Part shown: one piece after another, positions 5,257 through 45,457 of the stretch | How positions within the stretch are numbered: the first letter of the stretch is position 1 | Layout: each line of letters starts with the position of its first letter | Origin: a virus | Taxonomy: Duplodnaviria; Caudoviricetes | Direction: 5' to 3' (one strand) | DNA: 64,000 nucleotides | IMG/VR virus record: IMGVR_UViG_2675903060_000003 | Span: 33,178 to 97,177 of that record | Position numbers and translations under genes: made by a program | Notes under the pieces: generated by a model | What the model was told of the DNA's origin: nothing | Seen by the model: the letters and a program-made list of their open reading frames with translations, nothing else | Database searches by the model: none

Positions 5257-6225
5257 TCAGTTGTCGATCCATGCCTCTTCGGCGCGGTCGATGGCGTCAT
5301 AGAAGGCGCTCTGGTTCGGGCCGTCCACGACGACGCCCCAAGCGTCGCCGGTGGCCGGGGTGACGCGCAGGACGTTGCCGGATCCGGTGCCGCCCCATTC
5401 GCCATCGAGTTCGATGCGGACCTTGCCGGCGTTGGTGGAGACCTCCCGCCGGCGTACCCCCGTGTCCGGGCCGTCCGGGCTGTCTTCGTCGAAGCCTTCG
5501 ATGACGACGTCGATGGCGCGGCGGATGCGGGCGATGGATGCGGCGTTGAACGCGGTCTCCACGGGGGTGCCGTCGTCGCCGAGGTGCCGAAAGGCGATCT
5601 TGCCGTCGTCGGTGGGGTAGACGTCGATGTCGCCGTAGTCGGTGGGGACGCGGCTGGAGGAGTCGAGCCGGAACAGCGCTTCGTCGAGTTTGTCGATGTC
5701 GTTGCGGCTGAGGTTGACGGCGGGGGTGTTCGTGAGCGCTTCGATGCTGTCGGCGTCGCCGGCGACCCGCAGCGAATAGGAGTCGTCTCCGTCCTTCTGG
5801 ATGTGCGCGACGAGGTGTGAGACCGGCTGCTTGTCGGGGCCGGTCGTGTAGTAGCGGACGATCTGCGATGTGCCGACGTCCACGTCTTCGCCGGCCATGT
5901 CGCCGAGGCTGCGGTTCAGTTCCTCTGTGGCCCGCTTGTCGAGGGTGATGGAGGTGCCGTTCGCGGTGAGGGTGGTGGTGCCGTCGCTGTGGCGGTCGAG
6001 GGCGATCTCTTTGCCGTCGCGGGTGCGGATGTCTGCGCCGTTGATGATGCTGGGCATGCCTTGGCCGGTGGAGTGCCGGCTGGGTGAGTCTTTGACGGCG
6101 TCGGGGCGGGCGGTGTCGCGGAGGGCGGTGGAGATGGCGGACGGGTTGCCGCCGGAGGCTTTGCTGGCGAACTTGCCTTCGCGGTCGCGGGCGATGGCCG
6201 ACTCTCGGAAGGTGTGGGATCGCAT
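5257..6225 (-). CDS. Hypothetical protein (~322 aa) with an N-terminal RDxxGKF motif
   Basis: Long ORF with strong codon bias; AGGAGG RBS. Confidence 0.8.
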   Translation of the reverse strand: MRSHTFRESAIARDREGKFASKASGGNPSAISTALRDTARPDAVKDSPSRHSTGQGMPSIINGADIRTRDGKEIALDRHSDGTTTLTANGTSITLDKRATEELNRSLGDMAGEDVDVGTSQIVRYYTTGPDKQPVSHLVAHIQKDGDDSYSLRVAGDADSIEALTNTPAVNLSRNDIDKLDEALFRLDSSSRVPTDYGDIDVYPTDDGKIAFRHLGDDGTPVETAFNAASIARIRRAIDVVIEGFDEDSPDGPDTGVRRREVSTNAGKVRIELDGEWGGTGSGNVLRVTPATGDAWGVVVDGPNQSAFYDAIDRAEEAWIDN

Positions 6226-6384
6226 CGGGGCGTCCTCCTTCCGCACAGGCGGCGGTGACGCAGTGTCACATGCGCCGGTTCGTGGAGGCGTCTGGCGAGG
6301 TATCCGGCGGGTGGAGACCGGAGACTTTCCGCAGGATGTGCGGGGTGCACGCTGAGTGATGGGCCTACGGGCGGATGGTGGTCT

Positions 6385-6624
6385 TCACGGCTCCCGGTGG
6401 GTGGACTGCAAGTGCTTGGCCGCCTCTCCGATCAAGGCGGCGACGCTGGTCACGGTCACGACCTTCACATCCGCGTGCGCGGCCAGCGCGGACAGGTAGG
6501 CGAGTGGCCGGCCGTCGTCGAAGTGGTCGCGGCAGTGCAGGCCGACGCCTCCGTCTTCGTCTCCGCACAGGTAGAGGCGTGGATGGAGGAGCGCGGCGAT
6601 GAGGTCGTCCTTGGCCACCTTCAC
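6385..6624 (-). CDS. Hypothetical protein
   Basis: GTGA-coupled to the upstream gene. Confidence 0.65.
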   Translation of the reverse strand: MKVAKDDLIAALLHPRLYLCGDEDGGVGLHCRDHFDDGRPLAYLSALAAHADVKVVTVTSVAALIGEAAKHLQSTHREP

Positions 6625-28296: not shown

Positions 28297-28820
28297 GAGG
28301 CCGCTCCCGTCTCTGCGGTCTGTTCTGTGTGCCGGTAGGTGCAGTGTCCGCAACGAGGGCAGTGGGGGTGATCGCCCTTGCCGCAGTCGGGGCCGGGGTT
28401 CCAGGTGCAGCGCTCGCACGAGTCGCAGGTGGCGTTGAGGGTCCGCAGGCGGGCGGGCACTAGGTCGTGCAGGTGGGCGCGCACGAACTCGCGCCACTCC
28501 GCCATGTCGACCCCTTCCGGGTCGGCAGGGCTGATCAGGTCGGCCAGCCACGCCTCGACATCCACCGGCGGGTTCACGATCTCGGCCATGTCGCACTCGT
28601 GGCCAGCCGCCCAGCATTCGTGGCAGTTCTGGTCCTGCTCGGCGTCGTGGCCGGCGCAGATGAGGAACAAGCCGAGGTGTTCGTGGACGCAGCCTGCGAC
28701 GAGCAGCCGTTTCGCTGGCATCTGGCAGGGGCGGCGGGACTCGGTGTGGATGCCGCTACAGGGGAGGGGGATGTGTTTGCCCTCGGCGACGAGCTGGTAG
28801 AGGGCGTCCAGCGCGGTCAT
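28293..28820 (-). CDS. Cys/His-rich hypothetical protein
   Basis: Multiple CxxC; coupled ORF. Confidence 0.7.
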   Translation of the reverse strand: MTALDALYQLVAEGKHIPLPCSGIHTESRRPCQMPAKRLLVAGCVHEHLGLFLICAGHDAEQDQNCHECWAAGHECDMAEIVNPPVDVEAWLADLISPADPEGVDMAEWREFVRAHLHDLVPARLRTLNATCDSCERCTWNPGPDCGKGDHPHCPRCGHCTYRHTEQTAETGAAS

Positions 28821-28977
28821 GGCGTCGCCTCGCCGTTGCTCTCAGGGCAGCAGTCACGGCAGTTGAGTTCATTGCAGGTGCGGCACAGGGTGAGGTGGTG
28901 TCCGTCCACCACGTCGCTGGCCAGTTCGTGGCCTTCGTGGGCTGCCATCCAGCGGTCGTGACGTGTGGTCGTCGTGG

Positions 28978-29154
28978 TCATGTCGCACCTTCCAGGAGGT
29001 CGGTCTGTCCGTCGCAGTCTCCCCCGTCGCGCTTCGAGAAGCGGGGCGACGAAGGGGTGGTGATCCCCAGCCGTTCGGCGCAGTCAGGCCCGTACCCGAG
29101 ACGGCGGGATTCCGGGTCCCACAACTTCTTGCCGCACCCTGCCCGGCACTTCAT
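28978..29154 (-). CDS. DUF6011-like zinc-finger protein
   Basis: CRAGCGKKLWDPESRRLGYGPDCAERLG. Confidence 0.8.
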   Translation of the reverse strand: MKCRAGCGKKLWDPESRRLGYGPDCAERLGITTPSSPRFSKRDGGDCDGQTDLLEGAT

Positions 29155-38566: not shown

Positions 38567-40174
38567 CTAGGCGCTCCTTCGCGCGTTGGACTCCCAGCCA
38601 GGTGCCGGGATGAAGTCGGGGGCGATCTGCCAGGGCCAGCTACCTTCGCCGCCGTAGGTGAGGCGGGTGGGCCAGTCGCGGTCGTCTCGGGCGCCGCGCC
38701 ATGCCTTCACGGCGACGGTGCGGCAGCGCTCGCCATCGCGCATGTCGGGATCGTCGGGTGCGATGCCGAACCCGAACTCCGGCCAGCGCAGCAGCAGGCT
38801 GGAGCCGACGGGGCGTACGGAGCGGTTCTTGCCTTGCTCGCCCTGCCCCCCGTGGCCGGCATGTGCCTCGATGACCATGGCGCAGTCGCCCAGGACTCGG
38901 GCCTGGTCGAGGACGGCCACGGTCTTGCGGGCGGCGTCTTCGTCGTTGATGTTGCCTGCGTGCAGACGGTAGAAGGGGCCGATGAACAGCAGGTCGGGCT
39001 TGTGGGCGGTAACCCGCTCAAGCAGCCAGGCGGCGTCGTCGGCTCGAAGAACGTCGATGCCTGCTGGCCGATGGATGAGCCGCAGGGCGCCATCCGGAAC
39101 GCGGTGGCCGAATTTGATGGAGCAGGCGGCGAGTGGGCGAAACTTACGGCGGGACTGCTGCTCGGAGTTCTCGCAGTCGATCAGCAGAACCCGCATAGGC
39201 GGGATGTCGGTCCACTTGAACGGGTGCAGGCCCGCAGCGACCATGACCGCCATCTGGCGAATCGCCATGGACTTGCCCAGGCCCTCGAACCCGGTCCACA
39301 CCAGCCGATCGCCACGCTCAAGCAGGTTGGGAACGACCCAGTCGTAGTCGGTGTCGTCGACTGAGATGAACTCCCACAGGTCCGGCGCAAGGTCGGGCTT
39401 GGACTCTTCCTCGCTCGTCCAGATCGGCACCAGATCTGGAAGCTTCTTGCCAGCAGCGAAGTGGTCAGTGGCGTCCTTGCCTACCGCGGGCTCCACGAGG
39501 CGGATTGACGAGGCGACACCAAGGAGCGCATCACGGACCTGACGGGCGTGCGCTTCGCCGGCATCGTCACGGTCGCAGATGATCGTGACATCAGCCTCGC
39601 GGAAGACCTCGGTGTACTCCGGTCGCCACTTGCCGGCGCCGCCGGGGTTGCAGGTGGCCACGAGACCCTGTTTCTCCAGCGTGTGGACATCTTTCTCGCC
39701 CTCGGTGATGAAGATGACGTGGCCATCGCGGATGCCCTCGATGACCTTCGGCAGCCGGTAGAGCGGGCGCCGGGTGTCGCCGAGTCTCCAACTCCATCCC
39801 TTGGGGCGTGACGGGTCCGGCACGCGGCACGGGAACTGCTTGTCGGCGGTGCGCATCACCTGGAACAGCAGCTTGCCGTCCTCGTCGACGTAGTCGTAGA
39901 CGGCGACCGCCGGTCCGCGCGGAGTCCACTCGGCGTGCTGGTCGCGTTGCTCTCGCGGCTTGCACAGGTCGGGCCACGACAGGCCGAGCGCGGCGAGGAT
40001 GTCCTCCGTCTCGCACATCGCGTGGCAGTGGAAGACCACAGGCTGCTCTTTGCCGCGGGTGACGGACAGGCTCTGCTTGTTGTCCGGGTGGGCGGGACAC
40101 AGCGCCATGTAGCCCCCAGGCTGGGCGCGGACGCCTTCGAGCCGAGGGAGAACGAGGTCGTTGAGGATGTCCAT
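38567..40174 (-). CDS. DNA primase-helicase (Zn finger, TOPRIM and RecA-like AAA domains)
   Basis: CPAHPD...CHAMC, ITEGEKD, DRDDAG, GKDATD, Walker A GFEGLGKS, LLIDCEN. Confidence 0.92.
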   Translation of the reverse strand: MDILNDLVLPRLEGVRAQPGGYMALCPAHPDNKQSLSVTRGKEQPVVFHCHAMCETEDILAALGLSWPDLCKPREQRDQHAEWTPRGPAVAVYDYVDEDGKLLFQVMRTADKQFPCRVPDPSRPKGWSWRLGDTRRPLYRLPKVIEGIRDGHVIFITEGEKDVHTLEKQGLVATCNPGGAGKWRPEYTEVFREADVTIICDRDDAGEAHARQVRDALLGVASSIRLVEPAVGKDATDHFAAGKKLPDLVPIWTSEEESKPDLAPDLWEFISVDDTDYDWVVPNLLERGDRLVWTGFEGLGKSMAIRQMAVMVAAGLHPFKWTDIPPMRVLLIDCENSEQQSRRKFRPLAACSIKFGHRVPDGALRLIHRPAGIDVLRADDAAWLLERVTAHKPDLLFIGPFYRLHAGNINDEDAARKTVAVLDQARVLGDCAMVIEAHAGHGGQGEQGKNRSVRPVGSSLLLRWPEFGFGIAPDDPDMRDGERCRTVAVKAWRGARDDRDWPTRLTYGGEGSWPWQIAPDFIPAPGWESNARRSA

Positions 40175-41196
40175 TAGTTGTTCCAGAATTCGTTGGCGAC
40201 GGGTCTGCGGGTGGGTCGTTGCTCCTTGTAGCGCCGGCCATTGAGCCAGCCCTGAGCCCATTTGGTGCGGTCTGGGTTGCGGCGGGGGTCGTCGCGGAAC
40301 CATGCCGCGGCTTGGATGATCAGTTCGGGGTTGTCACCGCGGGCTACGGCTGCCTGCCATGCCTTGAAGGCGTCGAACTTGCCGCCTTTCTCGGGGTAGA
40401 TTTCCCAGAAGCGGACGAAGTCAGGGTCGGATTCGTAGTCCTCGGCATTCGAGCGCCGCTTGCGGCGCTTTCCCCCTGGGGGGGTAGGGGGGGTCTTTTC
40501 TTTTGTCTCTGTCTCTGTCTCTGTCTCTGGCGATCGCTCCCGACTCGCTCCAGCGATCGGTGTGCGACGTGCATTGTGGTCGTGCAGGTCAGAGTCCATT
40601 CCGGGGATCGGCTCGAAGTGGGAGCCGTTGACTGATGGCGCGCCCTCTTCCGCCTCAACCGCCCCTTCCCCGGTCCTTCGGGCCCCGTTTGAGGAGGGAG
40701 ACGATTCGGTGTGCGACTCGCCCACCCGATCGGTAACCGAGTCGGAGGTGCGATCGGTGGAGCGATCCATGCCGGACCGGCAGTGGATGCATGCCTCGTT
40801 GAACTGCCCCTTCTTCTGGTGCCACCGGATGTGGTTCCCCAAGGTCCCGCCAGCGGCCTTGTCCTCGGCAAGCCGAAGCACCTCAGCTCTCGTGCGGTTC
40901 CGCTTCCCGTAGGCGCACACCAGAAAGCCGCCTTCGACCCGTTCCAGCAGACGGGCCTGCACCAGCCGCTCAGCGTCGCGCAGCCCGTTGTCCCACGTGT
41001 CGGGGTAGACGAGGATGCCGACCTCTTCCTCCGGCACGAAACCGTCCGACAGGTTGCGCTTGCAGTACAGAGCCATCTGCACGTACAGATCCCGCAGGCC
41101 GCGTACGTCGGGGCCGTATCGAAGCAGGCTGCGCACCTTCGGGTCCTCGGCGAAGTTGACGACCAGTTCGATGTAAATCTCCGCCGCGGCAGCCAT
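40174..41196 (-). CDS. Phage replication initiator-like protein
   Basis: N-terminal helical domain, low-complexity linker (PETETETETKEK), C-terminal FVRFWEIYPEK...KAW...WLNGRRY. Confidence 0.8.
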   Translation of the reverse strand: MAAAAEIYIELVVNFAEDPKVRSLLRYGPDVRGLRDLYVQMALYCKRNLSDGFVPEEEVGILVYPDTWDNGLRDAERLVQARLLERVEGGFLVCAYGKRNRTRAEVLRLAEDKAAGGTLGNHIRWHQKKGQFNEACIHCRSGMDRSTDRTSDSVTDRVGESHTESSPSSNGARRTGEGAVEAEEGAPSVNGSHFEPIPGMDSDLHDHNARRTPIAGASRERSPETETETETKEKTPPTPPGGKRRKRRSNAEDYESDPDFVRFWEIYPEKGGKFDAFKAWQAAVARGDNPELIIQAAAWFRDDPRRNPDRTKWAQGWLNGRRYKEQRPTRRPVANEFWNN

Positions 41197-41813
41197 CAGG
41201 CAGACCTCCTACGGGCCGCAGGCCGCGGGGCTCTGGCGAACGACAGGCGGCCGAACTCGCCGAATTGCTCCTTGACGTAATCCCGGCCGGCGTTCCCCGT
41301 CTTGCGCGTCATGTTGCGCTGATGGGCGACAGCAGCAACCGCGGAGATGTACTGCCGATTGTGGATCAGACCGTCCTCGGTCCCGCAATGCCGACAGAAC
41401 CGCCCGTCGAGGCGGGTCTGCGTGAAGCACCACTCTTCACAGACCTCGCACTGGCCGATCGCGATGCGATAGTCGCCGGCCACCGCATGCCAGTTGGCAG
41501 ATCGACCCGGCTCGCCTGCGGCCCTGAGGATGACGACAAGCTCGCCGCCAGGCTCGTCGGGTGCCGCGACAGCCTTATGGAACTGGCGCGTCTTGTGCAG
41601 TCGCTGATTGTGGCCCCCCTTCACCTCGCACCAGACGTTCTGGCCGGGAAGCCGAAAGTCTGCGAGGTAGCGGACGCCACCGCCGAGGTCGACGGCCCAT
41701 GGCTCGTACTCGTAGTACCAGCCGAGCGTGTCGAACGTGGCTGCCCAATCCGCTTCGAGTGTTGAGCGGTAGGTGGTCCCGTTGTAGGTCAACGGGACAG
41801 CGCGGATGTTCAA
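41196..41813 (-). CDS. PD-(D/E)XK nuclease-family protein
   Basis: YRSTLEADWA..FD.LGW..EYEP...YLADF...EVKG. Confidence 0.85.
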   Translation of the reverse strand: MNIRAVPLTYNGTTYRSTLEADWAATFDTLGWYYEYEPWAVDLGGGVRYLADFRLPGQNVWCEVKGGHNQRLHKTRQFHKAVAAPDEPGGELVVILRAAGEPGRSANWHAVAGDYRIAIGQCEVCEEWCFTQTRLDGRFCRHCGTEDGLIHNRQYISAVAAVAHQRNMTRKTGNAGRDYVKEQFGEFGRLSFARAPRPAARRRSA

Positions 41814-41859: not shown

Positions 41860-41975
41860 ACCTATGTCTCATAATACGCACTCAGTACGTGTTAAGAGAG
41901 CCAGTTATGAGGACACGCAAAAGATGCGTGTTTTATCATCAGGTTGTGGTAACGCGCACATGAGACGCTGAAGGA
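41860..41975. promoter_or_regulatory. AT-richer divergent control region
   Basis: Between divergent genes; repeated CTCATAA/TTATGAG/CATGAG and ACGCA/TGCGT elements. Confidence 0.55.
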
Positions 41976-42212
41976 GTGGAGCCCGAGATGACCGCTGAAC
42001 TGGTAGAAGCCGCGACCGCCTACAACGAAGCGCCGAAGCGGCTGCGCGACGCGATCGTGAAGGCTGCCGAGACCAGCGACGCGACCGCCACGGAGATCGC
42101 CCAGGCGATCAACTTCACGTACTCCGTGGACTACGTGGCGAAGATCGTGCGCGAGGCCGGCGTTGCCCGCCCCCGCGGCCGGCGTCCTCGCGCGCCGCGC
42201 TCCGACTCCTGA
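41976..42212 (+). CDS. Small HTH regulator
   Basis: LRDAIVKAA...TATEIAQAINFTYSVDYVAKIVREAG; GGAG RBS, probable start at MTAEL. Confidence 0.8.
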   Translation: MEPEMTAELVEAATAYNEAPKRLRDAIVKAAETSDATATEIAQAINFTYSVDYVAKIVREAGVARPRGRRPRAPRSDS

Positions 42213-42313: not shown

Positions 42314-42346
42314 GGGCCGCCCGCCCTGTAGCGGGCGGCCCGTTTT
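42314..42346 (+). terminator. Intrinsic terminator-like hairpin
   Basis: GGGCCGCCCGC-cctgta-GCGGGCGGCCC followed by GTTTT. Confidence 0.7.
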
Positions 42347-42399
42347 CGTGTGGTGACCAGCTCAGGTGTCAGCTGAAGGCATGGTCATGAAGCTGGTCC

Positions 42400-42840
42400 G
42401 TCGCCAGTGGCGCGGAGAGCCCTGTGGCACGGCTCGGCATGTCGGCCGGTTCGGGTCGGGCCCGGATTGTCGGGTCGGCCTGGCGAGAACGTGTCGTGTC
42501 CGGGGCTGTCGGCCAGGAGCGGGTGGGCGTGGCATGTCGTCGAGGACTGTCGCCGGGTAGGCGAGGTGTGTCGGCGCGGAGCGGCTGGGCCGGCGTGGAC
42601 AAGTCGGCCGGGGGTAGCGCATGGGCCGGCGTGGGTAGTCGCGTTGCCGTGGGAAGGCTCGGCTCGTCGGCGTGGCGAGGGATGGAAGGGTCTGGCATGT
42701 CGGTGTGATTTGGCGGGAACGAGACGGGGCTGGGCTTGTCGGCGCGGCGGGAGTGTGAGCAAGGCGTGGAGTGTCGGCCTGGACGGGGCGGTGCTGGTTT
42801 GTCGCGCAGGGGTGGCTAGCCGTATCGGTCACGGCGTCGC
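42400..42840. repeat. Non-CRISPR array: 13 GTCG-delimited units of 28-41 bp, each built from (GGN-NN) pentamers; candidate guide-RNA array
   Basis: GTCG at 42400, 42441, 42469, 42508, 42536, 42570, 42603, 42638, 42666, 42699, 42738, 42773, 42801 and 42836; e.g. GTC GGC-GT GGC-GA GGG-AT GGA-AG GGT-CT GGC-AT GTC. Confidence 0.88.
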
Positions 42841-42855
42841 AGAAGAGGGCGTCCA

Positions 42856-43593
42856 TCAGATCCGCTCCCAGGCCAGCAGCTCGAACTTGCCGTCCGACCG
42901 GCCGCGGTCGGCGCCGACGCCGATGTCCTCGCCGCGCTCCCAGATGCGCCCCCAGGCTTGCGGGGTGAGGAAGTCGTCGTGGACCTTCAGCTCGAACTCC
43001 AGGACCGGCGACTGGACGTACTCGACGCGGTTGATCGACGAGCGGGGCCCCTGCGGGGTCATGACGTGCTTGATGCGCTCCTCAACGCCGGTGGGCTCCT
43101 TCACACCGAGCCCGATGTACACGTCGGGGACGAACACCCGCTCCGACAGGGTCGCCATCAGCCCCTTCCGGAAGCCCTTCGGCAGCGGCCGGCCCACGTC
43201 GCTTCCGGTGGCGGTCTTGCCGTCCCAGTCGACGCCGGGGTAGGCCGAGTTCGCCCACTCCTTCAGCGCCGCCTTCATGCACCGGCCCTCGTAGGCGAGC
43301 TCGCCCGTGTCGGGGACGCGTTTGAACCCGTTGATCGACGGGGCGGCGTCGGACTCCATGAGCGCGTCGGCGAGCTCGTCCGCGGACGGCTGACGGTCCG
43401 GGAACCGCTCCGTGAGGGTCTTCTGCACGAGCTCTTGCAGGTGCCGGTCGCCGATGTCCATGCGGGTCTTCAGCCAGCCCTTGATGACGGACGGCGACGA
43501 CGGAACCCCTCCCACGATCTTGTCGAGGATCTGCAGCCGGACCCGGTAGCAGGCCACGCTGGAGGAGGTGCCGAAGATGTCGACGGCGCCCAT
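42856..43593 (-). CDS. Stand-alone Cas7/RAMP-superfamily-like protein (245 aa)
   Basis: N-terminal strand YRVRLQILDKIVGG, AYEGRCMKAALKE helix, beta-hairpin EERIKHV...RSSINRVEYV, LEFELKV strand and C-terminal Gly-rich loop GVGADRGRSDGKFEL. Confidence 0.8.
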   Translation of the reverse strand: MGAVDIFGTSSSVACYRVRLQILDKIVGGVPSSPSVIKGWLKTRMDIGDRHLQELVQKTLTERFPDRQPSADELADALMESDAAPSINGFKRVPDTGELAYEGRCMKAALKEWANSAYPGVDWDGKTATGSDVGRPLPKGFRKGLMATLSERVFVPDVYIGLGVKEPTGVEERIKHVMTPQGPRSSINRVEYVQSPVLEFELKVHDDFLTPQAWGRIWERGEDIGVGADRGRSDGKFELLAWERI

Positions 43594-44003
43594 CAGCCGG
43601 CCGCCTTCCGGTCCGCGGGGACAGCGGTCAGGCTCGGGCGTGCGGTGGCCCGTTCCAGCGCCGCCTCGGCGTTCTTGCGCTTGTGCTTCTCCTCGTCGAC
43701 CTTCGCTTGGAGGCTGGCCACGTAGTCGGCGACGGACGGCGGCAGCTCGATCGGCTCGGCCAGTTCGGCGCGGGTCTGCCGCAGCGCCCGCTTGGCCTGC
43801 CCGTAGCGGACCACGACCGACTGGACCTGCGTCGCCCCTTCGAGGGCGCGGAACAGGTCGAACAGCTCGCGCGGCGTCTTGCCGTCGAGGGTTTGCCCGG
43901 TGATCGCCTCGATGTCTGCGCGGACGCCGGGGTCGTGCTGGATCAGCGCCACGACGGCGTCGAACTCGTCCGGGCTGTAGTCCTGGGGGTTGCGTGCTCT
44001 CAT
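43593..44003 (-). CDS. Helical / coiled-coil protein (136 aa), TGATG-coupled to the RAMP-like gene
   Basis: GAGG RBS; stop overlaps the RAMP start. Confidence 0.8.
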   Translation of the reverse strand: MRARNPQDYSPDEFDAVVALIQHDPGVRADIEAITGQTLDGKTPRELFDLFRALEGATQVQSVVVRYGQAKRALRQTRAELAEPIELPPSVADYVASLQAKVDEEKHKRKNAEAALERATARPSLTAVPADRKAAG

Positions 44004-44030
44004 CGTTGAAGTCCTCGGGGTGCGTGGTGG

Positions 44031-44306
44031 TCAGGTTGCGGAAGCAGCGGCGCGGCTTGCGGCACGCTGGCGGCGGCGTTTGATGGCGTCGCGCTCGGCG
44101 TCGGTGGTTCCGCCCCACACACCGACCACGCCATTCGCCAGCGCCCACTCCTTGCAAGAACTGATGACGCGGCAGCCGCCGCAGACCTTCTTGGCCTTCT
44201 CGATCTGCAGAAGGGCGGCACCGGTGTTGCCGATCGGGAAGAACATCTCGGGGTCGATGGAGCGGCAGGCGGCGCGGCGGCGCCAGCCCGATCCAGGGCT
44301 AGTCAT
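44031..44306 (-). CDS. WhiB-family Fe-S transcription factor (WhiB1/WblE-like)
   Basis: WRRRAAC...DPEMFFPIGNTGAALLQIEKAKKVCGGC...C...GVWGG. Confidence 0.95.
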   Translation of the reverse strand: MTSPGSGWRRRAACRSIDPEMFFPIGNTGAALLQIEKAKKVCGGCRVISSCKEWALANGVVGVWGGTTDAERDAIKRRRQRAASRAAASAT

Positions 44307-44637
44307 GGGATGTCGTCTCCGTTTCGTCGTTTCGGGTGGGGTCTCCAAGGGAGAGCGCTGCCGCTACCGCCTTGTAGGCGACCGCGGCCACCAGGCTCGG
44401 GTGGTCGTGGACGACGCCGCCCCTCGTGTGGCAGCGCTGGGCGAGTGCGTACGCGAGCGGATCGGACAGCGTCGGGTTCGCGCGGAGTTCGCCGGCGCGA
44501 GCCTCGAAGTAGGCCGCGGCGTCCACGCAGGCGCGGTCACGGGCATGCTGCTCGTGGAGCTTGAACTCGCCGCGTACGATCGCCTCGATGTCCACCACAG
44601 GGACCGGCAGCGTGACCGACGTCGGTTCAGGACGCAT
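44299..44637 (-). CDS. Hypothetical protein
   Basis: GGAGG RBS; overlaps its neighbours. Confidence 0.65.
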   Translation of the reverse strand: MRPEPTSVTLPVPVVDIEAIVRGEFKLHEQHARDRACVDAAAYFEARAGELRANPTLSDPLAYALAQRCHTRGGVVHDHPSLVAAVAYKAVAAALSLGDPTRNDETETTSHD

Positions 44638-45457
44638 CGGCCGCCTCCTCGTCGAACAGGGACGGGGTGACGTTCGGGAACGGGCGGTTCGACCACAGGA
44701 CCTCGGTGCGGGCCGACCACTTCTGCGCCTGCCCGGTTGCCGTCGGGATCTCCACCCGGTGCCAGCTGCCATACAGGTCGTCGTACAGCGGTGAGTCGTA
44801 GCCAGACAGCACCACCGCGGCGTCGCAGTCGAGCAGCGCTTTGGCGAGTTCAACGTGCTGGTCCTCGCGCGGCATCTCGTGCAGGTAGTTGACGCTCGTC
44901 CTCGTCGATGCGAGGTAAGGCGGATCGACGTACAGGCAGACCTCGCGGTGCTTGCCGTAGGAGGCGATCACGTCCAGGGCGGGGCGGCACTCCAGCGAGA
45001 CCGCGGCCAGCCGCTGAGCCGCGGCCGCGATCCGGGTCACGTACGCGGCGAGGTAGTCGGGCATCCCGGTGGAACCGACCGGTCGGACATAGTGCCGCCA
45101 GCCCGTGTTGCGCAGGGTGCCGCCGCGGCCCTGGGTGAGCCTCACCCACACGCGGCGGGCCTGCTCCAGCTCGTCGGCGGCGGGCTCGTACGCGGCCGTG
45201 TGCTCGGCGCGGGAGTGTGGCGTCAGCGCGCACACCCGCTCTAGGTCCGCGGGCCGGTCTCGGAGAATCCTCCAGAACGCCATCAAGTCCTGGTCCAGGT
45301 CATTGACCGTCTCCATCCGGGACGGCGTCTTGGCCAGCAGCACCGCGAGTGACCCGGCGAACGGCTCCACGTAGTGCTCGTGGGTGGGCAGCAGGCGCAC
45401 GATCTTCTCGGCGAGAGTCGTCTTACCGCCGTAGTACGTGAGTGGGGGCTTAGGCAT
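44627..45457 (-). CDS. DNA adenine methyltransferase (Dam/D12 class)
   Basis: YYGGK, EPFAGS, VNDLD, YVDPPY, VLSGY, EVLWSN. Confidence 0.95.
   Translation of the reverse strand: MPKPPLTYYGGKTTLAEKIVRLLPTHEHYVEPFAGSLAVLLAKTPSRMETVNDLDQDLMAFWRILRDRPADLERVCALTPHSRAEHTAAYEPAADELEQARRVWVRLTQGRGGTLRNTGWRHYVRPVGSTGMPDYLAAYVTRIAAAAQRLAAVSLECRPALDVIASYGKHREVCLYVDPPYLASTRTSVNYLHEMPREDQHVELAKALLDCDAAVVLSGYDSPLYDDLYGSWHRVEIPTATGQAQKWSARTEVLWSNRPFPNVTPSLFDEEAADAS

What the first reader, a model, noticed from the sequence alone, without database searches (positions are those of the whole stretch)
42400..42840. Two-level periodic array: 5-nt GG period nested in 28-41-bp GTCG-delimited units
Seen on the + strand: GTCG markers spaced 41, 28, 39, 28, 34, 33, 35, 28, 33, 39, 35, 28 and 35 bp apart. 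The 28-bp units are exactly GTC plus 5 pentamers (GGC-CG GTT-CG GGT-CG GGC-CC GGA-TT; GGC-CA GGA-GC GGG-TG GGC-GT GGC-AT; GCG-TT GCC-GT GGG-AA GGC-TC GGC-TC; GGC-CT GGA-CG GGG-CG GTG-CT GGT-TT). The 33-bp units are GTC plus 6 pentamers, and the others carry 1-3 extra nt, often after the third pentamer. A 5-nt period is incompatible with codon structure. Conserved scaffold positions combined with free dinucleotides are unlike slippage-made tandem repeats. Inference: an information-bearing array in which GTC(G) may mark processing or unit boundaries.
Basis: seen in the sequence. Interest (0 to 1): 0.9.

Follow-up and report, generated by a model that had tools for sequence, protein, structure and literature searches.

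The report
Prophage VIPR guide-RNA array
The odd five-base-periodic, G-rich stretch is real and is best read as the guide-RNA array of a prophage VIPR system, a CRISPR-related RNA-guided DNA silencer first described in 2026, sitting right behind the gene for its Cas7-like protein; it is a further example of a very new but already known kind.

Summary
Bases 42400-42840 are non-coding and are the window's strongest outlier for G-over-C skew and for lag-5 G/GG autocorrelation. They are built of GGC/T-NN pentamers interrupted about every 28-41 bp by GTC.

The trio of a 131-149-aa partner gene, the Cas7-like gene and a G-rich pentamer array recurs in most of nine prophage loci of Nonomuraea, Actinomadura and related genera. 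The partner gene was not found in one of them. Array sequences are unrelated between loci, but the grammar is the same: G 96%, G 68%, C/T 65%, then two positions at about 2 bits of entropy.

This fits VIPR systems (bioRxiv 10.64898/2026.04.26.720920 and .720927). Earlier follow-ups in this scan reached the same reading on other genomes.

Three things stay open:
- The GGY strand is antisense to the protein gene in all nine loci.
- Units here are very short (5-7 pentamers).
- I found no targets and no RNA data.

Verdict: a new member of a known kind.

The parts
43593..44003 (-). 136-aa partner gene (P0125); candidate vipr-accessory protein (vap)
   Evidence: High GC3 in this frame. Its stop overlaps the start of the Cas7-like gene. 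A homolog lies directly upstream of the Cas7-like gene in L005, L006, L007 and L009. A 131-149-aa gene lies directly upstream with a 4-nt overlap in L011-L014, and adjacent locus tags in two named genomes identify it as a homolog there. It has no Pfam, PHROG or PADLOC family. The model is helical with a long coiled coil and has no PDB fold match. No similarity to SUSP1 Vap1.
42856..43593 (-). vipr: 245-aa Cas7-like RAMP protein (P0005)
42808..42842 (+). conserved terminal anchor: GGCTAGCC palindrome plus a 5-bp hairpin (GCCGU / ACGGC) and GCGUCGC
   Evidence: Present at the vipr-proximal end of the array in 9 of 9 loci. The loop varies from 7 to 10 nt. One compensatory pair change (U-A to C-G) occurs in L006. 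On the G-rich strand it lies 3' of the last unit, like a vrRNA tail.
42441..42807 (+). array body: about 12 units of GTC + (GG-C/T-NN)n, n mostly 5-7, some with 1-2 nt slips
   Evidence: Units start at 42441, 42469, 42508, 42536, 42570, 42603, 42638, 42666, 42699, 42738, 42773 and 42801. The region is not coding. As RNA it is no more structured than shuffles (z -0.37).
42346..42440 (+). leader-like stretch with a hairpin (GACCAGCU...AGCUGGUC) and the first degenerate pentamers
   Evidence: Conserved with the Nonomuraea purpurea locus L005, together with the first two units, while the middle units are unrelated. No promoter consensus was found in it.
42314..42341 (+). GC hairpin with a T tract: terminator of the small + strand gene; marks the distal edge of the array
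   Evidence: 11 GC pairs followed by GTTTTCGTGT. A hairpin at this end of the array is also seen in L005, L006 and L012.

Best explanation
The tract is the guide-RNA (vrRNA) array of a prophage VIPR system. The adjacent 245-aa gene encodes Vipr, a small Cas7-like RAMP protein.

In the published mechanism, Vipr protomers polymerise along the RNA, one per pentamer. Each holds the GG-pyrimidine scaffold and presents the two free bases. These read double-stranded DNA two bases at a time, skipping every third target base, which silences transcription of rival phages or satellites.

Here each unit is GTC plus 5-7 pentamers. The units abut without individual tails, and a single conserved hairpin closes the array next to vipr. 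A translationally coupled 136-aa gene upstream is the likely accessory gene.

Shown here: the non-coding 5-nt grammar with a fixed scaffold and free dinucleotides, the Cas7-like fold, and conserved linkage of gene and array in nine prophage loci.

Inferred from the literature: RNA expression, filament assembly, the skip-one code and silencing.

Unknown: which strand is transcribed, where units are cut, and what they target.
For: - Non-coding status, G skew and lag-5 signal without lag-3.
- Scaffold and free-position composition: G 96%, G 68%, C/T 65%, then about 2 bits at positions 4-5, in a 68% GC window.
- Unit length of 3+5n: P 5e-9.
- It carries a RAMP-type glycine loop that aligns colinearly with the thumb RP and G-loop of SUSP1-type Vipr.
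- No tandem or CRISPR-type repeats. No cas, defence or other family on the protein or its partner.
- The same gene followed by a G-rich pentamer array, at the same place and polarity, in L004, L005, L006, L007, L009, L012, L013 and L014. Lengths run from about 200 to about 970 bp and sequences are unrelated apart from the anchor.
- Prophage setting: serine integrase, primase-helicase, replication initiator.
- Published description of VIPR. Non-canonical and 5-nt arrays found independently.
- The SUSP1 locus, read here, shows the same pentamer grammar.
Against: - Profile-profile comparison with SUSP1-type Vipr is not significant (E 0.14; single sequence E 0.3). Membership therefore rests on fold and context.
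- The GGY strand is antisense to vipr in all nine loci, unlike SUSP1. In L011-L014 the flanking genes all run in the vipr direction. No promoter was recognised for the G-rich strand.
- Units in this window are shorter (5-7 pentamers) than the 9-16 reported. The scaffold is looser: position 3 is a purine in about a third of pentamers.
- No per-unit tail is present.
Confidence: 0.85

Rival explanations
1. It is a VIPR array, but the functional RNA is the C-rich strand. It would be co-transcribed with vipr as (NN-RCC)n units closed by GAC, making this a non-canonical scaffold variant rather than GGY.
For: - The array lies directly 3' of vipr on the same strand in 9 of 9 loci.
- In L004 and L011-L014 the genes on both sides run in the vipr direction, so that strand is the one most likely to be transcribed through.
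- No G-strand promoter was found.
- Non-canonical scaffolds such as GAC/NN are reported.
Against: - All seven published types use GG-based scaffolds.
- Read on the G strand, the conserved hairpin is a 3' tail, as in published vrRNAs. On the C strand it would be a 5' element.
- In L004, L005 and L006 a strong GC hairpin separates the vipr stop from the array, as expected between two convergent transcripts.
Confidence: 0.2
2. It is a replication origin or other protein-binding site array: TGTCGG iterons bound by the nearby replication initiator or a partition protein.
For: - A (A/T)TGTCGG boundary motif recurs about every 28-41 bp.
- In this window the replication initiator and primase-helicase genes lie 1.2-4 kb away.
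Against: - In the relatives the array follows the Cas7-like gene, not the replication genes. Neighbours on the other side differ: WYL, Trans_reg_C, HTH_17 or none.
- Spacing is quantised as 3+5n rather than by helical turns.
- The spacers themselves carry a 5-nt scaffold with G at 96%.
- There is no AT-rich unwinding element.
Confidence: 0.03
3. Its main role is as a Rho-loading (rut) region or long 3' UTR of the vipr operon: a C-rich, G-poor transcript on the minus strand.
For: The minus-strand transcript would be 48% C and 24% G over 440 nt. It would be weakly structured; only the + strand was folded.
Against: C richness alone needs no 5-nt register, no near-invariant scaffold base, no 3+5n unit lengths and no maximal-entropy dinucleotides. 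It also does not explain strict linkage to a RAMP protein. It could be a side effect rather than the function.
Confidence: 0.04
4. It is a protein-coding, low-complexity proline- and threonine-rich gene: ORF 42362-42856, whose ATG overlaps the vipr stop.
For: A 164-aa ORF is open, and its start overlaps the vipr stop (ATG/TGA).
Against: - All three minus-strand frames are open.
- There is no GC3 phase and no lag-3 signal.
- Unit lengths are not multiples of 3.
- The conserved anchor carries 2- and 3-nt length changes between loci.
- No family matches the ORF.
Confidence: 0.01

Closest known systems
VIPR systems (Vipr + vrRNA + vap), bioRxiv 10.64898/2026.04.26.720920 and 10.64898/2026.04.26.720927; type II exemplar Escherichia phage SUSP1 (NC_028808, vipr 28474-29061)
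   Same: - A small stand-alone RAMP/Cas7-like protein with a C-terminal glycine loop.
- A two-gene operon in a (pro)phage with no CRISPR array.
- An adjacent intergenic array of pentamers with a fixed GG-pyrimidine scaffold and hypervariable NN.
- Arrays that differ completely between related phages.
- A conserved structured element 3' of the repeats when read on the G strand.
   Different: - No significant sequence similarity to SUSP1-type Vipr or Vap1.
- The protein is longer (245 aa against 195 aa).
- The GGY strand is antisense to vipr (sense in SUSP1).
- Units are 5-7 pentamers here and up to about 13 in relatives, against 9-16 reported.
- Units abut, separated only by GTC, and lack the roughly 40-nt pseudoknot tail.
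- Scaffold position 3 is looser.
- The partner gene lies upstream of vipr, not downstream.
'Staggered' vrRNA arrays mentioned in the same preprint (text and legend of fig. S18)
   Same: Guide units follow one another directly, with the end of one marking the start of the next and no spacer or tail between them.
   Different: Only the legend could be read. I could not check whether those arrays use a GTC boundary, occur in Actinomycetota, or lie antisense to vipr.
Class 1 CRISPR Cas7 backbone filaments (Csm3, Cmr4, type VII Cas7)
   Different: - No CRISPR repeats or spacers, and no Cas5, Cas6, Cas10 or adaptation genes nearby.
- The period is 5 nt, not 6.
- The scaffold bases are written into the guide itself.

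Membership tests
VIPR system | Sequence relationship to published Vipr proteins | tested here: inconclusive
   hhalign of 30 family members against 20 SUSP1-type Viprs gives E 0.14. The alignment is colinear over 90 C-terminal residues, pairing the thumb RP and the G-loop. The single sequence gives E 0.3. The discovery query X1U2U4 was not available here.
VIPR system | Adjacent non-coding array of at least four tandem GGY/NN pentamers, with a conserved scaffold and hypervariable NN | tested here: met
   G 96%, G 68%, C/T 65%, with 2.00 and 1.96 bits at NN. Lag-5 z is 5.2-5.6.
VIPR system | No CRISPR array or further cas genes at the locus; minimal two-gene operon with an accessory gene (vap) | tested here: met
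   No tandem repeats. No cas or defence family on the neighbours examined. A coupled 131-149-aa partner gene is seen in eight of the nine loci. Its fold and function are unknown.
VIPR system | Conserved structured 3' tail after the repeat tract of each vrRNA | tested here: inconclusive
   There is one conserved hairpin per array, not per unit, in 9 of 9 loci, with one compensatory change. Units are separated only by GTC.
VIPR system | vrRNAs are expressed and bound by Vipr | not testable with these tools
   No RNA run was listed for this sequence.
VIPR system | NN dinucleotides match targets in rival mobile elements under the 1-nt-skip rule | tested here: inconclusive
   Units of 10-14 specified bases hit the 10-Mb host genome at chance level, singly, in adjacent pairs and in clusters. 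There were no matches in related loci. A 12-pentamer unit from L006 had no match with up to 3 mismatches in 401 family genomes.
VIPR system | Viral or proviral location | tested here: met
   Serine integrase, primase-helicase, replication initiator, Dam methylase and other phage families in the window. Relatives occur in IMG/VR contigs.
CRISPR array | Near-identical direct repeats of about 23-50 nt alternating with unique spacers | tested here: not met
   Tandem Repeats Finder finds nothing in 42.2-42.9 kb. The only recurring element is GTC(G) with a short flanking bias.
Iteron-type replication origin | Several copies of a 17-22-bp initiator-binding repeat, an AT-rich unwinding element, and linkage to the initiator gene | tested here: not met
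   The recurring motif is about 7 nt. There is no AT-rich element. Across relatives the array is linked to the Cas7-like gene, not to replication genes.

The most novel reading that the evidence does not exclude
This Streptosporangiaceae clade may be a distinct VIPR design. It would be a dense, tail-less array in which GTC (a scaffold triplet without its NN) separates one-turn guides of only 5-7 pentamers. The array would be transcribed convergently to vipr, or, more radically, from the vipr strand as an NN-RCC scaffold. If one-turn guides are functional, the minimal unit of VIPR recognition is far shorter than published. Alternatively, several short guides may act together on one filament.
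Probability: 0.2. Interest if true: 0.6.

Novelty: new member of a known kind. Interest (0 to 1): 0.4.

Why it matters
VIPR is a months-old discovery, proposed as the viral ancestor of CRISPR backbones. It uses a gapped recognition code. Actinobacterial prophage members with antisense, GTC-punctuated, very short guide units extend the known range of array designs. They pose two concrete, testable questions: which strand is the guide, and how short can a working guide be. For this window itself, the result is mainly an annotation. The 630-bp gap between the small + strand gene and vipr is a guide array, not an origin, a gene or junk.

Tried and rejected
- **Array DNA against phage records.** BLAST in distant mode found no match. 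The array is single-copy in its own genome.
- **Rfam.** Only a sub-threshold sRNA hit on the terminator hairpin.
- **RNA evidence.** No RNA holder was listed for this stretch.
- **Targets, single units.** Exact and 1-mismatch hits in the own genome under skip 0-3 were no more frequent than for order-shuffled units.
- **Targets, adjacent pairs.** Colinear hits for adjacent units with gaps of -1 to 14 matched expectation. The one exact 18-of-18 hit, at C13:321901, lies in an ordinary chromosomal gene and is read as chance.
- **Targets, clusters.** Clustering of hits from different units was close to the shuffled controls.
- **Targets, other sequences.** All runs of six or more pentamers from six arrays gave nothing above chance against the window and five related loci. 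One 12-pentamer unit gave no match against 401 family genomes.
- **One failed call.** A heavier version of the pair scan returned no answer and was redone by seeding.
- **NN base composition as a strand indicator.** The result depended on how pentamers were chosen, so it was dropped.
- **Promoter scans.** No consistent promoter was found for either strand at four loci.
- **Partner protein.** No family and no fold match.
- **Ideas held before the VIPR lead.** R-loop or class-switch-like origin, Chi- or KOPS-like polar motifs, and an RNA sponge. I did not pursue them once the Cas7-like gene and its linkage to the array were seen.
- **Complex prediction.** Not used, because no protein-protein binding claim is made.

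Full report
**The observation**

The 28-bp units read as GTC plus five pentamers beginning with GG. The periodic signal, however, is strong.

- Against 500 dinucleotide-preserving shuffles, lag-5 autocorrelation has z=5.2 for G and 5.6 for GG. Lag 3 is negative.
- Global Fourier power at period 5 is not significant, because each GTC shifts the phase by 3. The period is local and nested, as described.
- Of 1156 sliding windows of 440 bp, this region ranks first for GC skew (+0.36) and first for lag-5 autocorrelation of G and of GG.
- The GC3 frame plot shows strong codon phase on both sides and none between about 42220 and 42850.
- All three minus-strand frames are open there, which is expected for C-rich sequence and is not evidence of a gene.

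**Surroundings**

The window is a prophage in a 10-Mb actinobacterial genome. Its closest relatives, found by protein search, are Nonomuraea and Actinomadura.

- A large serine integrase lies at 62540-64000.
- A primase-helicase (38567-40303), a replication initiator (40174-41196), a small nuclease (41196-41813), a Dam methylase (44627-45457) and a WhiB-like gene (44031-44348) lie on the minus strand.
- The array sits between two convergent 3' ends. On the left are a small + strand gene (41976-42212) and its terminator hairpin (42314-42341).
- On the right is the stop codon (42856) of a minus-strand gene.
- That ORF is open for 433 codons, but database relatives are 238-270 aa. The real gene is 245 aa, 42856-43593.
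- Its start overlaps the stop of a 136-aa gene, 43593-44003.

**Related loci**

The 245-aa protein family is widespread in Streptosporangiaceae. It is annotated only as hypothetical and has no Pfam domain. I read eight further loci:

- L004, from a genome of the same genus
- L005, Nonomuraea purpurea
- L006, Actinomadura sp.
- L007, Nonomuraea basaltis
- L009 (same as L011), Sphaerisporangium siamense
- L012, Microtetraspora
- L013, Spongiactinospora rosea
- L014, Spongiactinospora sp.

In every one, the gene is followed by a non-coding stretch of about 200 to 970 bp. That stretch is G-rich on the strand opposite the gene and is made of the same GTC-plus-pentamer units.

The arrays cannot be aligned to each other, with two exceptions. 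The first is a 35-nt anchor next to the gene: GGCTAGCC followed by a 5-bp hairpin and GCGTCGC. It is present in 9 of 9 loci, with variable loop length and one compensatory pair change. The second is a leader plus the first two units, shared by the window and its closest relative L005.

Pooled over 337 pentamers:

| Pentamer position | Composition |
|---|---|
| 1 | G 96% |
| 2 | G 68% |
| 3 | C 53%, T 12% |
| 4 | 2.00 bits |
| 5 | 1.96 bits |

This is in windows of about 70% GC. GTCG spacings are 3 mod 5 in 50 of 113 cases (P 5e-9) and show no preference mod 3. The array is therefore a conserved grammar with free content, always attached to this gene.

**The protein**

- An AlphaFold model built on 30 homologs has pLDDT 82.
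- Foldseek against the PDB gives type VII Cas7, Csm3 and Cmr4 as top hits (E 7e-7, probability 1.0).
- The invariant C-terminal GIGADRGRSDGxF is a RAMP-type glycine loop.
- There are no tandem or CRISPR-type repeats. No cas, PADLOC, Pfam or PHROG family matches this protein or its partner.

**Identification**

Notes from earlier follow-ups in this scan pointed to VIPR systems. I read the two preprints and two later ones.

VIPR loci consist of Vipr, a vap accessory gene and vrRNAs. Vipr is a minimal RAMP protein found by structural similarity to Cas5/6/7. The vrRNAs are built of GGY/NN pentamers. Vipr polymerises one protomer per pentamer, holds GGY and presents NN. NN pairs with double-stranded DNA while skipping every third target base, which gives transcriptional silencing of rival phages and satellites. 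Seven types are described, some with 'staggered' tail-less arrays, and non-canonical scaffolds have since been reported.

I located the SUSP1 locus in its GenBank record. The residue numbers quoted in the structure paper fit the 195-aa gene at 28474-29061, and its flanking regions show the published pentamers on the gene's strand.

The window's locus meets the structural, contextual and array criteria. Sequence comparison with SUSP1-type Viprs is not significant (E 0.14). Even so, the alignment is colinear and pairs the thumb Arg-Pro and the glycine loop, including an arginine invariant in both families.

**What differs or stays open**

1. *Strand.* The GGY strand is antisense to vipr in all nine loci, whereas it is sense in SUSP1.
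   - In L004 and L011-L014 the genes on both sides run in the vipr direction.
   - No promoter for the G-rich strand was recognised.
   - In favour of the G-rich strand: every published type has a GG-based scaffold. The conserved hairpin then lies 3' of the repeats, like a vrRNA tail. Three loci have a strong hairpin between the vipr stop and the array, as between convergent transcripts.
   - I put 80:20 on the G-rich strand.
2. *Unit length.* Units in this window have only 5-7 pentamers (10-14 specified bases). Relatives reach about 13, against 9-16 published. Whether such one-turn units act alone is unknown.
3. *The partner gene.* The 136-aa partner is conserved and coupled in eight of the nine loci. 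It has no recognisable DNA-binding fold and no similarity to Vap1.
4. *Targets.* With such short units, hits in the host genome are at chance level singly, in adjacent pairs and in clusters. Nothing was found in related loci. A long unit from L006 found nothing in 401 family genomes.
5. *RNA data.* No RNA run was listed.

**Rivals**

- An iteron origin is unlikely. Across relatives the array is linked to the Cas7-like gene rather than to replication genes, spacing is quantised as 3+5n, and there is no AT-rich element.
- A Rho-loading region explains the C richness of the minus-strand transcript. It does not explain the register, the near-invariant scaffold base or the protein linkage.
- Coding is excluded by the frame plot, the absence of period 3, and 2-3-nt length changes in the conserved anchor.

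**Verdict**

The thing is a VIPR guide array with its Vipr gene. That makes it a new member of a kind first described in 2026, and one already recognised several times by this scan in other genomes.

Noticed in passing
window 5700-6400: This region has the second-highest GC skew in the window (+0.26 to +0.32) and many GTCG. It shows no lag-5 signal and overlaps the upstream end of a high-GC3 minus-strand ORF (5257-6246).
   Followed up: no
window 41976-42212 (+): A small 78-aa gene with its own promoter-like site (41910-41939) and terminator converges on the array. It is 96% identical in the N. purpurea locus L005, more conserved than vipr (86%), but is not found next to the array in the other loci. 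It matches no family.
   Followed up: partly
window 42854-42856 and 42362-42856 (-): A 164-aa ORF through the array starts with an ATG that overlaps the vipr stop codon. It looks like a coupled gene but has no codon phase. The same stretch carries 2-3-nt indels in relatives, so a gene caller could mis-annotate it.
   Followed up: yes
window 42856-44157 (-): The vipr frame stays open for 188 codons upstream of its real start, giving a spurious 433-aa ORF. tblastn even aligns this wrong-frame extension in L005, because the DNA, which encodes the 136-aa partner in another frame, is conserved.
   Followed up: yes
window 42638-42665 versus L005: One internal unit (GTC GCGTT GCCGT GGGAA GGCTC GGCTC) is shared with the N. 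purpurea array. Its three differences all fall in scaffold positions 2-3, and all five NN dinucleotides are identical. This is a single case and is not significant.
   Followed up: partly
window 44031-44348 (-): A WhiB-family transcription factor gene (Pfam E 3e-21) lies just upstream of the partner-vipr pair in the prophage early region.
   Followed up: no
window 62540-64000 (-) and 24786-24860 (-): A large serine recombinase-type integrase runs off the right end of the window. A tRNA-Ala(TGC) gene lies at 24.8 kb. Prophage ends were not mapped.
   Followed up: no
L011 4144-4659; L012 3930-4376; L014 4332-4556: In relatives, the gene just beyond the array, in the vipr direction, is often a predicted DNA-binding regulator (WYL, Trans_reg_C, HTH_17). 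It is a different one in each locus.
   Followed up: no
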